Below, in pieces: positions 8,185 through 13,375 of a DNA stretch of 64,000 bases (the first letter of the stretch is position 1; each line of letters starts with the position of its first letter). Both the position numbers and the translations under genes were made by a program. The notes below the pieces were generated by a model, which searched no databases, had not been told where the DNA came from, and saw only the letters and a list, made by a program, of their open reading frames with translations. Origin of the DNA: Escherichia coli (GTDB lineage Bacteria > Pseudomonadota > Gammaproteobacteria > Enterobacterales > Enterobacteriaceae); NCBI RefSeq assembly GCF_024502345.1, contig NZ_JALDNN010000001.1; one strand, given 5' to 3'.

Positions 8185-9453
8185 ATGATTATCAAACGCA
8201 CTCCTCAAGCCGCGTCGCCTCTGGCTTCGTGGCTTTCTTATCTGGAAAACCTGCACAGTAAAACTATCGATCTCGGCCTTGAGCGCGTGAGCCAGGTCGC
8301 GGCGCGTCTTGGCGTCCTGAAACCAGCGCCATTTGTATTTACCGTTGCGGGTACGAATGGCAAAGGCACCACCTGCCGTACGCTGGAGTCGATTCTGATG
8401 GCGGCAGGGTACAAAGTGGGCGTCTACAGTTCGCCGCATCTGGTGCGTTATACCGAGCGCGTACGTGTGCAGGGTCAGGAATTGCCGGAATCGGCCCACA
8501 CCGCCTCTTTTGCGGAGATTGAATCGGCACGCGGTGATATTTCCCTGACCTATTTCGAGTACGGTACGCTGTCGGCGTTGTGGCTGTTCAAACAGGCACA
8601 ACTTGACGTGGTGATTCTGGAAGTAGGGCTGGGCGGTCGTCTGGACGCAACCAATATTGTCGACGCCGATATCGCGGTAGTAACCAGTATTGCGCTGGAT
8701 CATACCGACTGGCTGGGGCCAGATCGCGAAAGTATTGGTCGCGAGAAAGCAGGCATCTTTCGCAGCGAAAAACCGGCAATTGTCGGTGAGCCGGAAATGC
8801 CTTCTACCATTGCTGATGTGGCGCAGGAAAAAGGTGCACTGTTACAACGTCGGGGCGTTGAGTGGAACTATTCCGTCACCGATCATGACTGGGCGTTTAG
8901 CGATGCTCACGGCACGCTGGAAAACCTGCCGTTGCCGCTTGTCCCGCAACCGAATGCCGCAACGGCGCTGGCGGCACTGCGTGCCAGCGGGCTGGAGGTC
9001 AGTGAAAATGCCATTCGTGACGGGATTGCCAGCGCAATTTTGCCGGGACGTTTCCAGATTGTGAGCGAGTCGCCACGCGTTATTTTTGATGTCGCGCATA
9101 ATCCACATGCGGCGGAATATCTCACCGGGCGTATGAAAGCGCTACCGAAAAACGGGCGCGTGCTGGCGGTTATCGGTATGCTACATGATAAAGATATTGC
9201 CGGAACTCTGGCCTGGTTGAAAAGCGTGGTTGATGACTGGTATTGTGCGCCACTGGAAGGGCCGCGCGGTGCTACGGCAGAACAACTGCTTGAGCATTTG
9301 GGTAACGGCAAATCATTAGATAGCGTTGCGCAGGCATGGGATGCCGCAATGGCGGACGCTAAAGCGGAAGATACCGTGCTGGTGTGTGGTTCTTTCCACA
9401 CGGTCGCACATGTCATGGAAGTGATTGACGCGAGGAGAAGCGGTGGCAAGTAA
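8185..9453 (+). CDS. folC: bifunctional folylpolyglutamate synthase / dihydrofolate synthase
   Basis: 422-aa ORF; P-loop GTNGKGTT; Mur-ligase-like fold. Confidence 0.9.
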   Translation: MIIKRTPQAASPLASWLSYLENLHSKTIDLGLERVSQVAARLGVLKPAPFVFTVAGTNGKGTTCRTLESILMAAGYKVGVYSSPHLVRYTERVRVQGQELPESAHTASFAEIESARGDISLTYFEYGTLSALWLFKQAQLDVVILEVGLGGRLDATNIVDADIAVVTSIALDHTDWLGPDRESIGREKAGIFRSEKPAIVGEPEMPSTIADVAQEKGALLQRRGVEWNYSVTDHDWAFSDAHGTLENLPLPLVPQPNAATALAALRASGLEVSENAIRDGIASAILPGRFQIVSESPRVIFDVAHNPHAAEYLTGRMKALPKNGRVLAVIGMLHDKDIAGTLAWLKSVVDDWYCAPLEGPRGATAEQLLEHLGNGKSLDSVAQAWDAAMADAKAEDTVLVCGSFHTVAHVMEVIDARRSGGK

Positions 9454-10105
9454 GTTTCAGAATCGGTTAGTGGGCACGATCGTGCTGGTGGCGCTGGGGG
9501 TGATTGTACTTCCAGGGCTGCTGGACGGGCAGAAAAAACATTATCAGGATGAGTTTGCGGCTATCCCGCTGGTTCCAAAAGCGGGCGATCGCGATGAGCC
9601 TGATATGATGCCAGCCGCCACCCAGGCGTTGCCGACGCAGCCGCCGGAAGGCGCAGCGGAAGAGGTGCGGGCAGGTGATGCCGCAGCACCGTCGCTCGAT
9701 CCGGCCACTATTGCAGCCAATAACACCGAGTTTGAACCGGAACCTGCACCGGTCGCCCCACCGAAGCCGAAACCGGTGGAGCCGCCTAAGCCGAAGGTTG
9801 AAGCACCACCTGCGCCGAAGCCAGAACCGAAGCCGGTCGTGGAAGAAAAAGCAGCGCCAACGGGTAAAGCCTATGTTGTGCAACTGGGCGCGCTGAAAAA
9901 TGCCGATAAAGTGAATGAGATTGTCGGTAAGCTGCGCGGTGCCGGTTATCGGGTTTATACGTCGCCATCCACGCCAGTGCAGGGTAAAATTACCCGTATT
10001 CTGGTTGGGCCAGATGCCTCGAAAGATAAGCTGAAAGGTTCGCTTGGCGAACTGAAGCAGATCTCTGGTTTGAGCGGCGTGGTGATGGGCTACACGCCGA
10101 ATTAA
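9443..10105 (+). CDS. dedD: cell division protein DedD (SPOR domain)
   Basis: 220 aa from the GTG at 9443 (the track starts at an upstream TTG, 9425); N-terminal TM helix, Pro/Lys/Glu-rich linker, C-terminal SPOR-like domain; overlaps the folC 3' end by 11 nt. Confidence 0.85.
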   Translation: MASKFQNRLVGTIVLVALGVIVLPGLLDGQKKHYQDEFAAIPLVPKAGDRDEPDMMPAATQALPTQPPEGAAEEVRAGDAAAPSLDPATIAANNTEFEPEPAPVAPPKPKPVEPPKPKVEAPPAPKPEPKPVVEEKAAPTGKAYVVQLGALKNADKVNEIVGKLRGAGYRVYTSPSTPVQGKITRILVGPDASKDKLKGSLGELKQISGLSGVVMGYTPN

Positions 10106-10114
10106 TACGGTTTT

Positions 10115-10475
<361 letters not shown>

Positions 10476-10507
10476 ATTGCACGATGCCGCAAAGGCATAA
10501 AAAGTCG

Positions 10508-10540
10508 ATGGCGTTGAATATTTTTTCAGCGCCATTTTTA
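10508..10540 (+). terminator. rho-independent terminator downstream of dedD and the BIMEs
   Basis: Stem atggcgttgaa/ttcagcgccat, loop tatttt, then a T run. Confidence 0.55.
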
Positions 10541-10564
10541 TTGATGCGCGGGAAGGAAATCCCT

Positions 10565-10580
10565 ACGCAAACGTTTTCTT
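10565..10580 (+). promoter_or_regulatory. PurR operator (PUR box) of the cvpA-purF operon
   Basis: acgcaaacgttttctt matches the PurR operator consensus ACGCAAACGTTTNCNT; immediately followed by an extended -10-like tgttagaat (10585-10593). Confidence 0.75.
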
Positions 10581-10636
10581 TTTCTGTTAGAATGCGCCCC
10601 GAACAGGATGACAGGGCGTAAAATCGTGGGACACAT

Positions 10637-11125
10637 ATGGTCTGGATTGATTACGCCATAATCGCGGTGATTGCTTTTTCCTCTCTGGTTAGCCTGATCC
10701 GCGGCTTTGTTCGTGAAGCGTTATCGCTGGTGACATGGGGGTGTGCTTTCTTTGTTGCCAGTCATTACTACACTTACCTGTCAGTCTGGTTTACGGGCTT
10801 TGAAGACGAACTGGTTCGAAATGGGATTGCCATCGCGGTACTATTTATCGCTACCCTGATCGTTGGTGCTATCGTGAACTTCGTGATAGGCCAGCTGGTG
10901 GAGAAAACGGGGTTGTCAGGCACCGATCGGGTGCTGGGCGTCTGTTTCGGTGCGTTGCGCGGTGTGTTGATTGTTGCTGCCATTCTCTTCTTTCTCGACT
11001 CCTTTACCGGGGTGTCGAAAAGCGAAGACTGGAGCAAATCACAGCTGATCCCGCAGTTCAGTTTTATCATCAGATGGTTTTTTGATTATCTGCAAAGCTC
11101 GTCAAGTTTCTTGCCCAGAGCGTAA
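10637..11125 (+). CDS. cvpA: colicin V production membrane protein
   Basis: 162-aa hydrophobic ORF directly upstream of purF. Confidence 0.85.
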   Translation: MVWIDYAIIAVIAFSSLVSLIRGFVREALSLVTWGCAFFVASHYYTYLSVWFTGFEDELVRNGIAIAVLFIATLIVGAIVNFVIGQLVEKTGLSGTDRVLGVCFGALRGVLIVAAILFFLDSFTGVSKSEDWSKSQLIPQFSFIIRWFFDYLQSSSSFLPRA

Positions 11126-11161
11126 GTGCTCTGAGATGTGGCTTAACGAGGAAAAAGACGT

Positions 11162-12679
11162 ATGTGCGGTATTGTCGGTATCGCCGGTGTTATGCCGGTT
11201 AACCAGTCGATTTATGATGCCTTAACGGTGCTTCAGCATCGCGGTCAGGATGCCGCCGGCATCATCACCATAGATGCCAATAACTGCTTCCGATTGCGTA
11301 AAGCGAACGGGCTGGTGAGCGATGTATTTGAAGCTCGCCATATGCAGCGTTTGCAGGGCAATATGGGCATTGGTCATGTGCGTTACCCTACGGCTGGCAG
11401 CTCCAGCGCCTCTGAAGCGCAGCCGTTTTACGTTAACTCCCCGTATGGCATTACGCTTGCCCACAACGGCAATCTGACCAACGCTCACGAGTTGCGTAAA
11501 AAACTGTTTGAAGAAAAACGCCGCCACATCAACACCACTTCCGACTCGGAAATTCTGCTTAATATCTTCGCCAGCGAGCTGGACAATTTCCGCCACTACC
11601 CGCTGGAAGCCGACAATATTTTCGCTGCCATTGCTGCCACAAACCGCTTAATCCGCGGCGCGTATGCCTGTGTGGCGATGATTATCGGCCACGGTATGGT
11701 TGCTTTCCGCGATCCAAACGGGATTCGTCCGCTGGTACTGGGAAAACGTGATATTGACGAGAACCGTACAGAATATATGGTCGCTTCCGAAAGCGTAGCG
11801 CTCGATACGCTGGGCTTTGATTTTCTGCGTGACGTCGCGCCGGGCGAAGCGATTTACATCACTGAAGAAGGGCAGTTGTTTACCCGTCAATGTGCTGACA
11901 ATCCGGTCAGCAATCCGTGCCTGTTTGAGTATGTATACTTTGCCCGCCCGGACTCGTTTATCGACAAAATTTCCGTTTACAGCGCGCGTGTGAATATGGG
12001 CACGAAACTGGGTGAGAAAATTGCCCGCGAATGGGAAGATCTGGATATCGACGTGGTGATCCCGATCCCGGAAACCTCGTGTGATATCGCGCTGGAAATT
12101 GCTCGTATTCTGGGCAAGCCGTACCGCCAGGGCTTCGTTAAAAACCGCTATGTTGGCCGCACCTTCATCATGCCGGGCCAGCAGCTGCGTCGTAAGTCCG
12201 TGCGCCGTAAACTGAACGCCAACCGCGCCGAGTTCCGCGATAAAAACGTCCTGCTGGTCGACGACTCCATCGTCCGTGGCACCACTTCTGAGCAGATTAT
12301 CGAGATGGCACGCGAAGCCGGAGCGAAGAAAGTGTACCTCGCTTCTGCGGCACCGGAAATTCGCTTCCCGAACGTTTATGGTATTGATATGCCGAGCGCC
12401 ACGGAGCTTATCGCTCACGGTCGCGAAGTTGATGAAATTCGCCAGATCATCGGTGCTGACGGGTTGATTTTCCAGGATCTGAACGATCTGATCGACGCCG
12501 TTCGCGCTGAAAATCCGGATATCCAGCAGTTTGAATGCTCGGTGTTCAACGGCGTCTACGTCACCAAAGATGTTGATCAGGGCTACCTCGATTTCCTCGA
12601 TACGTTACGTAATGATGACGCCAAAGCAGTGCAACGTCAGAACGAAGTGGAAAATCTCGAAATGCATAACGAAGGATGA
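11162..12679 (+). CDS. purF: amidophosphoribosyltransferase
   Basis: 505-aa ORF; N-terminal nucleophile MCGIVGI (class II glutamine amidotransferase); PRTase domain. Confidence 0.95.
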
Positions 12680-12773
12680 TGCCTTCGCTGAGGGTGCCGG
12701 TCTGGCACCCTGACTTGCAACTCCCGCCGAAATCCTGCAAAGTCTGCCTGCAAGTCTGACAGGGCAACTATTT

Positions 12774-13343
12774 ATGAAACGACTCATTGTAGGCATCAGC
12801 GGTGCCAGCGGCGCGATTTATGGCGTGCGCTTATTACAGGTTCTGCGCGATGTCACAGATATCGAAACGCATCTGGTGATGAGCCAGGCAGCGCGCCAGA
12901 CCTTATCCCTCGAAACGGATTTTTCTCTGCGCGAAGTGCAGGCATTAGCCGATGTCACGCACGATGCGCGCGATATTGCCGCCAGCATCTCTTCCGGTTC
13001 TTTCCAGACGCTGGGGATGGTGATTTTACCCTGTTCAATCAAAACCCTTTCCGGCATTGTCCATAGCTATACTGATGGCTTACTGACCCGTGCGGCAGAT
13101 GTGGTGCTGAAAGAGCGTCGCCCGTTGGTGCTCTGCGTGCGTGAAACACCATTGCACTTAGGCCATCTGCGTTTAATGACTCAGGCGGCAGAAATCGGTG
13201 CGGTGATTATGCCTCCCGTTCCGGCGTTTTATCATCGCCCGCAATCCCTTGATGATGTGATAAATCAGACGGTTAATCGTGTTCTTGACCAGTTTGCAAT
13301 AACCCTTCCTGAAGATCTCTTTGCCCGCTGGCAGGGCGCATAA
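12774..13343 (+). CDS. ubiX: flavin prenyltransferase UbiX
   Basis: 189-aa ORF; flavoprotein motif GISGASGA. Confidence 0.9.
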   Translation: MKRLIVGISGASGAIYGVRLLQVLRDVTDIETHLVMSQAARQTLSLETDFSLREVQALADVTHDARDIAASISSGSFQTLGMVILPCSIKTLSGIVHSYTDGLLTRAADVVLKERRPLVLCVRETPLHLGHLRLMTQAAEIGAVIMPPVPAFYHRPQSLDDVINQTVNRVLDQFAITLPEDLFARWQGA

Positions 13344-13351
13344 CTCCGCTG

Positions 13352-13375
13352 TTGCCCTGTTTCAGGGCAATTTTG
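13352..13375 (+). terminator. rho-independent terminator after ubiX
   Basis: Stem ttgccct/agggcaa, loop gtttc, then tttt. Confidence 0.6.

What the first reader, a model, noticed from the sequence alone, without database searches (positions are those of the whole stretch)
10560..10600. PurR operator overlapping the cvpA-purF promoter
acgcaaacgttttctt is a near-perfect PUR box and is immediately followed by tgttagaat, an extended -10-like element. The operator therefore sits on the promoter, the expected arrangement for purine repression of the cvpA-purF-ubiX transcription unit.
Basis: partly seen in the sequence, partly recalled or inferred. Interest (0 to 1): 0.2.

Follow-up and report, generated by a model that had tools for sequence, protein, structure and literature searches.

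The report
Known PurR operator at cvpA-purF promoter

Summary
The window is E. coli chromosome (accD-folC-dedD-cvpA-purF-ubiX-argT-hisJ). ACGCAAACGTTTTCTT lies at 10565-10580. It is 14/16 to the perfect PUR palindrome, against 0.04 such matches expected per window. On a PurR matrix built without it, it scores 20.9 bits, 7 bits above anything else in the 64 kb. After a 4-bp linker (TTTC) comes TGTTAGAAT at 10585-10593, so 'immediately followed' is slightly off.

The promoter region is identical to K-12 MG1655, where the cvpA start site was mapped (Kim 2012: 240 reads, 36-nt leader). That start corresponds to G10601. The box therefore spans -36 to -21, covering the -35 position and most of the spacer, and the -10 hexamer spans -13 to -8. 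There is no usable -35 (2-3/6), so the promoter depends on the extended -10.

The same 16-mer is the published PurR ChIP-chip motif for cvpA-purF-ubiX, bound only when adenine is present (Cho 2011). Purified PurR shifts the fragment in a gel shift (Robertson 2018). The 50-bp core matches at 99% or better in 5382 of 5425 E. coli genomes, and the 16-mer is identical in 78 of 79 other Enterobacteriaceae loci.

Verdict: observation confirmed, interpretation supported, already known, low interest.

The parts
10507..10545 (+). Terminator-like hairpin plus T-run after dedD and the REP array. It is the upstream boundary of the cvpA control region.
   Evidence: 12-pair stem at 10507-10536, tail TTTATTGATG; conserved across Enterobacteriaceae loci. 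Its function is inferred.
10565..10580 (.). PUR box: the 16-bp PurR operator ACGCAAACGTTTTCTT (the purF operator), at -36 to -21 from the TSS, centre -28.5.
   Evidence: sequence and chance tests; ChIP-chip motif, reverse complement, same coordinates; gel shift of the cvpA-purF fragment; conservation.
10565..10570 (+). Nominal -35 position (ACGCAA with a 17-bp spacer, 2/6 to TTGACA; TACGCA with an 18-bp spacer, 3/6). It lies entirely inside the operator.
   Evidence: Read directly from the sequence relative to the TSS. The consensus scan finds no canonical -35/-10 pair.
10585..10593 (+). Extended -10 element TG-T-TAGAAT (TG at -16/-15, hexamer at -13 to -8).
   Evidence: its position relative to the mapped TSS; 0.997 column conservation in 80 loci.
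10594..10600 (+). GC-rich stretch GCGCCCC between the -10 and +1 (discriminator position).
   Evidence: conservation 0.974 over 10594-10602. Any role in ppGpp/DksA control is inference only.
10601..10601 (+). Transcription start site (G) of cvpA-purF-ubiX.
   Evidence: Kim et al. 2012 supplementary TSS table, transferred through 100% sequence identity with MG1655.
10601..10636 (+). 36-nt 5' untranslated leader of cvpA.
   Evidence: 5' UTR length 36. The fold is unremarkable (z = -1.9).
10637..11125 (+). cvpA (colicin V production protein).
   Evidence: NF008100, E = 8.9e-102.
11162..12679 (+). purF (amidophosphoribosyltransferase, the first step of de novo purine synthesis).
   Evidence: TIGR01134, E = 1.6e-162.
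12774..13343 (+). ubiX (flavin prenyltransferase), the last gene of the unit.
   Evidence: NF004685, E = 5.6e-93. Only weak TSSs of its own (8-10 reads against 240 for cvpA).
13352..13374 (+). Hairpin TTGCCCTG-ttt-CAGGGCAA followed by TTTT, the probable terminator of the operon.
   Evidence: Read. The scan missed it because the tail has only 4 T. Inference.

Best explanation
The 16-bp imperfect palindrome at 10565-10580 is the purF operator, the site bound by a dimer of the LacI/GalR-family purine repressor PurR when it carries its corepressor hypoxanthine or guanine. It lies at -36 to -21 of the sigma-70 promoter that starts cvpA-purF-ubiX transcription at G10601.

That promoter has no usable -35 hexamer and relies on an extended -10 (TGnTAGAAT, 10585-10593). 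The operator fills the place where region 4 of sigma and the spacer-proximal part of RNA polymerase must sit. Bound PurR therefore prevents productive initiation when purines are plentiful and releases the promoter when they are scarce.

Shown: the sequence, its statistical significance, its identity to the K-12 site, the TSS, PurR occupancy in vivo that depends on adenine, PurR binding in vitro, and deep conservation. Inferred: that repression works by steric exclusion of RNA polymerase rather than by a later block.
For: - Sequence and position.
- Only match in the window at 2 mismatches or fewer, 0.04 expected.
- Leave-one-out PurR matrix score of 20.87 bits, top of the window by 7 bits, reached by 0 of 200 shuffles.
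- Downstream genes are cvpA, purF and ubiX.
- Promoter region identical to MG1655.
- TSS at the G that corresponds to 10601, 240 reads, 36-nt leader.
- The PurR ChIP-chip peak 2,428,603-2,428,965 carries the motif AAGAAAACGTTTGCGT (the reverse complement of this site) and is seen only with adenine.
- PurR sites generally lie between -35 and -10 and act on initiation; purF is listed among the PurR-hypoxanthine-repressed genes.
- Gel shift of the cvpA-purF fragment (-171 to +56) by purified PurR.
- The 50-bp core matches at 99% or better in 5382 of 5425 E. coli genomes.
- The 16-mer is identical in 78 of 79 loci from other Enterobacteriaceae, at -70 to -75 from the ATG.
- Column conservation is 0.999 (box), 1.0 (linker) and 0.997 (extended -10), against 0.82-0.92 in the flanks.
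- The same 16-mer is predicted upstream of cvpA-purF in Haemophilus influenzae.
- From my own knowledge, not retrievable here: Makaroff & Zalkin 1985, Rolfes & Zalkin 1988 (operator-constitutive mutations, DNase footprint), He et al. 1990 (5- to 17-fold purR-dependent regulation; operators overlap promoters), and Schumacher et al. 1994 (crystal structure of PurR-hypoxanthine bound to purF operator DNA).
Against: Nothing found argues against it. Four limits apply.

- The binding and TSS experiments were done in K-12 and EHEC, not in this strain; the transfer rests on 100% sequence identity.
- The comparative set is confined to Enterobacteriaceae with CvpA at 90% identity or more, so background intergenic conservation is already 0.82-0.92 and the footprint contrast is modest.
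- Conservation alone cannot separate constraint from PurR from constraint from RNA polymerase on the same bases.
- The classical footprint and mutant papers could not be read here.
Confidence: 0.95

Rival explanations
1. PurR binds here but does not exclude RNA polymerase. Instead it blocks a later step: isomerisation to the open complex or promoter escape, or distortion of the spacer by the sharp bend PurR induces.
For: The operator does not touch the -10 element, and this promoter depends on the extended -10 with no real -35, so polymerase might still dock. PurR bends operator DNA strongly (about 97 degrees at carAB, described as comparable to the purF operator).
Against: The box covers -36 to -21, which RNA polymerase normally contacts on an overlapping face. 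Published summaries describe PurR at such sites as regulating initiation by overlapping the promoter. I found no kinetic study either way.
Confidence: 0.12
2. The conserved block is only promoter DNA (spacer and upstream contacts), or the site of another LacI-family regulator, and its resemblance to a PUR box is incidental.
For: Conservation runs seamlessly from about 10556 to 10602, across box, linker, -10 and discriminator. Conservation by itself therefore does not single out PurR. The promoter-proximal half-site is a poorer match to the consensus.
Against: There is direct in vivo occupancy by PurR with exactly this motif, and only with adenine. There is a gel shift with purified PurR. The PurR matrix score of 20.9 bits sits in the upper range of the known sites (10.6-23.3).
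Confidence: 0.02
3. It is a chance match to the PUR consensus with no function.
For: At 3 mismatches or fewer to the perfect palindrome, 0.58 matches per window are expected.
Against: The site has 2 mismatches, for which 0.04 matches are expected. None of 200 shuffled windows reached its matrix score. It is invariant in 78 of 79 species and experimentally bound.
Confidence: 0.01

Closest known systems
E. coli K-12 purF operator (PurR site at the cvpA promoter; Makaroff & Zalkin 1985; Rolfes & Zalkin 1988; Cho et al. 2011)
   Same: Identical sequence over the whole control region. Same 16-mer, same distance to the cvpA ATG, same TSS and same downstream genes.
   Different: Nothing in the operator or promoter differs. 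The only local difference is upstream: the dedD-cvpA spacer carries three more 91-bp REP-type units than MG1655 (531 against 258 bp).
Other PUR boxes of the PurR regulon that overlap promoters (purT, purC, purMN, purL, purEK, purHD)
   Same: A 16-bp imperfect palindrome with the AAACGTTT core and central CG, placed over the -35/spacer region and acting on initiation.
   Different: The promoter-proximal half-site here (TTTTCTT) departs from TTTGCGT at two positions, whereas purT is a near-perfect palindrome. The sites at purB and purR lie downstream of the start and act as roadblocks; the carAB site lies far upstream at -128.5 and needs PepA.
Extended -10 (TGn) sigma-70 promoters
   Same: TG one base upstream of a 5/6 -10 hexamer, a poor -35, and a TSS 7 nt downstream of the hexamer.
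   Different: None of note. That transcription actually depends on the TG has not been tested by mutation as far as I could find.

Membership tests
PUR box (operator of the LacI/GalR-family repressor PurR) | A 16-bp imperfect palindrome matching ACGCAAACGTTTGCGT, with a central CG and the AAAC/GTTT core | tested here: met
   14/16 match, core and central CG intact. 20.87 bits on a leave-one-out matrix of published sites, top of the window.
PUR box (operator of the LacI/GalR-family repressor PurR) | Located in the control region of a purine or nucleotide metabolism transcription unit, overlapping the promoter or just downstream of the start | tested here: met
   -36 to -21 relative to the mapped TSS of cvpA-purF-ubiX.
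PUR box (operator of the LacI/GalR-family repressor PurR) | Bound by PurR, dependent on the corepressor | tested here: met
   Tested by identity to the published site, not by experiment here. The ChIP-chip motif has the same sequence and coordinates and is bound only with adenine. Gel shift with purified PurR. The window is identical to K-12 over the region.
PUR box (operator of the LacI/GalR-family repressor PurR) | Purine- and purR-dependent repression of the downstream genes in this strain | not testable with these tools
   Needs reporter or RNA measurements. Reported for K-12 (He et al. 1990 from my own knowledge).
PUR box (operator of the LacI/GalR-family repressor PurR) | A purR gene present in the same genome | not tested
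   purR lies outside this 64-kb window. It is expected, since the window matches E. coli chromosomes at 99-100%.
PUR box (operator of the LacI/GalR-family repressor PurR) | Conserved at orthologous promoters in related species | tested here: met
   Identical in 78 of 79 Enterobacteriaceae loci, with one single-base variant. Matches at 99% or better in 5382 of 5425 E. coli genomes. The same 16-mer is predicted in H. influenzae.
Extended -10 sigma-70 promoter | TG one base upstream of a -10 hexamer with A at position 2 and T at position 6 | tested here: met
   TG-T-TAGAAT at 10585-10593.
Extended -10 sigma-70 promoter | A transcription start 6-8 nt downstream of the hexamer | tested here: met
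   TSS at G10601, 7 nt after T10593.
Extended -10 sigma-70 promoter | A weak or absent -35 hexamer | tested here: met
   Best candidates score 2/6 and 3/6. The consensus scan reports no -35/-10 pair in 10000-11300.
Extended -10 sigma-70 promoter | Loss of activity when the TG is mutated | not testable with these tools
   Needs mutagenesis.

The most novel reading that the evidence does not exclude
The control region may be a composite, co-constrained element rather than a simple operator on a promoter. The promoter-proximal half-site (TTTTCTT) is two positions off the PurR consensus, yet it is invariant in 78 of 79 Enterobacteriaceae and identical in the Haemophilus prediction. It is joined without any variable base to the TTTC linker, the extended -10 and a GC-rich rrn-like stretch (GCGCCCC) before +1.

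One reading is that the half-site is held at sub-maximal affinity because the same bases serve as the spacer of a promoter without a -35. A second is that the promoter also integrates ppGpp/DksA (growth-rate) control through the discriminator, so that purF responds to both purine supply and the stringent response at a single 45-bp module.
Probability: 0.2. Interest if true: 0.25.

Novelty: already known. Interest (0 to 1): 0.05.

Why it matters
It matters little as a discovery. This is the founding example of the PurR regulon operator, mapped genetically and biochemically in the 1980s, used for the PurR-DNA crystal structures, and re-confirmed by ChIP-chip and TSS mapping.

Its value here is as a positive control for the scan: a reader working from raw sequence located a real operator and promoter to within a few bases. 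The small additions from this work are a precise coordinate map in this window (operator -36 to -21, TSS 10601), the near-complete invariance of the whole 45-bp module across 80 Enterobacteriaceae loci, and the observation that the imperfect half-site is as conserved as the perfect one.

Tried and rejected
- The consensus sigma-70 scan over 10000-11300 found no promoter. That does not argue against a promoter: the scan requires at least 4/6 in the -35, which this extended -10 promoter lacks.
- The palindrome search at 3 mismatches or fewer has no power (0.58 expected). I replaced it with the 2-mismatch search and a leave-one-out matrix.
- I considered an RNA hairpin GCGCCC(10595-10600)/GGGCGT(10615-10620). 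I rejected it as an RNA element because the mapped TSS (10601) leaves the 5' arm out of the transcript. The real leader folds unremarkably (z = -1.9).
- The second-best matrix hit (346-361, 13.8 bits) is below the mean maximum of shuffled windows (14.8), so it is chance.
- He et al. 1990, Thomason et al. 2015 and Sanchez-Vazquez et al. 2019 could not be retrieved. Cho et al.'s supplementary expression tables are not held.
- Searches for 'cvpAp / purF promoter' and for ppGpp control of purF transcription in E. coli returned nothing relevant.

Full report
**What is in the sequence**

Reading 10200-11000 shows ACGCAAACGTTTTCTT at 10565-10580. A 4-bp linker TTTC (10581-10584) follows, then TGTTAGAAT at 10585-10593, then GCGCCCCG, and the first ATG of a 162-codon ORF at 10637. 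The quoted strings and coordinates are therefore correct. 'Immediately followed' is slightly loose, because four bases separate the box from the TG.

**Context**

NCBIfam equivalog and subfamily models identify the ORFs in order as accD, folC, dedD, cvpA (10637-11125), purF (11162-12679), ubiX (12774-13343), argT and hisJ. A 1.1-kb query around the site matches E. coli chromosomes. One strain matches at 100%, and 5136 of 5426 complete genomes cover at least 80% of the query, with cvpA, purF and dedD annotated under the match. The window is E. coli chromosome at the classical purF locus.

**Is the box more than chance?**

Against the perfect palindrome ACGCAAACGTTTGCGT the site has 2 mismatches.
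- At 3 mismatches or fewer the window would give 0.58 matches by chance, which is uninformative.
- At 2 mismatches or fewer it gives 0.04, with 4 of 100 shuffles producing any match, and this is the only match.

For a less arbitrary test I built a symmetrised weight matrix from 14 other PurR ChIP-chip motif instances printed in Cho et al. 2011, leaving the cvpA site out. The site scores 20.87 bits and the runner-up in 64 kb scores 13.79. The maximum of 200 Markov-shuffled windows averaged 14.8 (largest 20.3) and never reached the site. The training sites themselves score 10.6-23.3, so this is a strong PUR box.

**Where is the promoter?**

The simple consensus scan finds no -35/-10 pair in 10000-11300. 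This is expected, because the best -35 candidates are ACGCAA (17-bp spacer, 2/6) and TACGCA (18-bp spacer, 3/6).

The TSS has been measured. Kim et al. 2012 (PMC3415461, supplementary file 2) list one cvpA TSS at NC_000913.2 position 2,428,821 on the minus strand, with 240 reads and a 36-nt 5' UTR. Their -50..+1 sequence is GGAAGGAAATCCCTACGCAAACGTTTTCTTTTTCTGTTAGAATGCGCCCCG. The window is base-for-base identical to MG1655 over 10540-10645, so +1 is G10601. This gives:
- -10 hexamer TAGAAT at -13 to -8, 7 nt before +1
- TG at -16/-15
- PUR box at -36 to -21, centre -28.5

The operator therefore covers the -35 position and 10 of the 17 spacer bases. It stops 4 bp short of the TG and 7 bp short of the -10 hexamer. 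The promoter is of the extended -10 type.

**Is it the known site, and is it bound?**

Cho et al. 2011 (PMC3159470) Table 1 lists a PurR ChIP-chip region 2,428,603-2,428,965 for cvpA-purF-ubiX, with motif AAGAAAACGTTTGCGT at 2,428,842-2,428,857. This is the reverse complement of the window's 16-mer. With ATG = 2,428,785 = window 10637, it maps exactly to window 10565-10580.

- PurR binding there was seen only when adenine was added.
- The same paper lists purF among the genes repressed by PurR-hypoxanthine. It states that PurR sites generally lie between the -35 and -10 elements and act on initiation.
- Charlier et al. [quoted passage not shown]
- Robertson et al. 2018 (PMC5829826) show a gel shift of a cvpA-purF fragment (-171 to +56) by purified PurR.
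- The sequence also appears among the RegulonDB PurR sites used by Angarica et al. 2008.

The founding papers could not be opened here, and I cite them from my own knowledge: Makaroff & Zalkin 1985; Rolfes & Zalkin 1988, two papers; He et al. 1990; Schumacher et al. 1994.

**Conservation**

The 50 bp at 10556-10605 occur once per genome in 5425 of 5426 complete E. coli genomes, at 99% identity or better in 5382. The one variant I inspected has a 1-bp deletion in the C-run after the -10 and leaves the box untouched.

A scan of one genome per species with CvpA returned 80 loci from Escherichia, Salmonella, Citrobacter, Enterobacter, Klebsiella, Raoultella, Kosakonia, Buttiauxella, Cedecea and others. 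In the 79 loci with enough upstream DNA, the 16-mer is identical in 78 and has a single A-to-T change in one. It always lies 70-75 nt before the ATG.

Mean column identity in the alignment:

| Segment | Identity |
|---|---|
| PUR box | 0.999 |
| TTTC linker | 1.0 |
| Extended -10 | 0.997 |
| 10594-10602 | 0.974 |
| Surrounding intergenic DNA | 0.82-0.92 |

Seventy of the 80 upstream sequences are distinct. The contrast is real but modest, because these are close relatives. Sinha et al. 2013 predict the identical 16-mer upstream of cvpA-purF in Haemophilus influenzae, which suggests much deeper conservation.

**The transcription unit**

- The gaps are 36 bp (cvpA-purF) and 94 bp (purF-ubiX).
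- The terminator scan finds nothing in either gap, and the four hits inside coding sequence are at the shuffle expectation.
- In Kim et al.'s data the cvpA TSS has 240 reads. TSSs inside cvpA upstream of purF have 3-7 reads, and those before ubiX have 8-10. This is consistent with one dominant promoter for all three genes.
- A hairpin followed by TTTT just after ubiX (13352-13374) is a plausible terminator (inference).
- Upstream, a 12-pair hairpin with a T-run at 10507-10545 separates the promoter from dedD and the REP array.

**Mechanism**

PurR is a LacI/GalR-family dimer. With hypoxanthine or guanine bound, it binds the PUR box (review text). At -36 to -21 of a promoter that lacks a -35 and depends on the extended -10, bound PurR occupies DNA that RNA polymerase needs. 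The simplest reading is steric exclusion of polymerase when purines are abundant.

Binding, its dependence on adenine, the position and the TSS are all shown. The exclusion step is inferred. A block after polymerase binding, helped by the strong bend PurR induces, is the only serious mechanistic rival, and I give it about 0.12.

**Comparison and novelty**

This is not merely like the purF operator; it is the purF operator, with no base changed relative to K-12. Every sequence-level defining feature of a PUR box and of an extended -10 promoter was tested and met. Only the wet-lab features in this particular strain are untestable here.

**Residual curiosity**

The promoter-proximal half-site (TTTTCTT against the consensus TTTGCGT) is as invariant as the perfect half. 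The GC-rich GCGCCCC before +1 resembles the rrnB P1 discriminator (own knowledge). Together these allow, but do not show, a composite module in which the operator bases double as promoter spacer and the promoter also senses ppGpp/DksA. Literature searches for this came back empty.

Noticed in passing
window 10113-10476: A tandem array of 91-bp REP/BIME-type units sits between dedD and cvpA. The dedD-cvpA spacer is 531 bp here against 258 bp in MG1655, a difference of exactly three 91-bp units, so this strain carries an expanded array. REP-like pieces of the 1.1-kb query also match a median of 25 places per E. coli genome.
   Followed up: partly
window 10594-10600: A GC-rich stretch GCGCCCC lies between the -10 hexamer and the TSS. 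It is nearly invariant across 80 Enterobacteriaceae loci and resembles the rrnB P1 discriminator GCGCCACC (own knowledge), hinting at negative ppGpp/DksA control of the purF promoter. I found no supporting literature. One E. coli genome (E423) has a 1-bp deletion in this C-run, possibly a homopolymer sequencing error.
   Followed up: partly
window 10574-10580: The promoter-proximal half of the operator (TTTTCTT) differs from the consensus half-site at two positions. It is nonetheless invariant in 78 of 79 species and identical in the H. influenzae prediction. This suggests selection for sub-maximal PurR affinity, or a second constraint from the promoter spacer.
   Followed up: partly
window 10507-10545: A terminator-like 12-pair hairpin with a T-run lies directly upstream of the cvpA promoter and is conserved across Enterobacteriaceae. 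It probably ends dedD transcription and insulates the PurR-controlled promoter from read-through.
   Followed up: no
window 12691-12711: An 8-bp GC-rich hairpin (AGGGTGCC-ggtct-GGCACCCT) sits in the purF-ubiX spacer with no T-run. It is not an intrinsic terminator by the scan. It could be an mRNA processing or stability element, or could modulate ubiX expression. Two weak ubiX TSSs (8 and 10 reads) are reported nearby.
   Followed up: no
window 10601-10660: In the predicted fold of the leader, GGGCGUA (10615-10621) pairs with UACGCCA early in cvpA and encloses the ribosome-binding region and the AUG. The stability is only marginally unusual (z = -1.9; 8 of 200 shuffles fold as well).
   Followed up: partly
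window 9425-9453: The end of folC (stop at 9453) overlaps the start of dedD. In MG1655 the annotated dedD is 663 bp and overlaps folC by 11 bp, which fits translational coupling. The longest ORF listed here starts earlier, at a TTG at 9425.
   Followed up: no
MG1655 IG 2428784-2429041, corresponding to window about 10380-10637 (minus strand): Maciag et al. 2011 list the intergenic region upstream of cvpA, transcribed in the opposite direction, among the regions in their in vitro run-off microarray table (value 1.71). They also list cvpA, purF and ubiX (values 1.85-2.12). A divergent or antisense transcript from this spacer was not examined.
   Followed up: no
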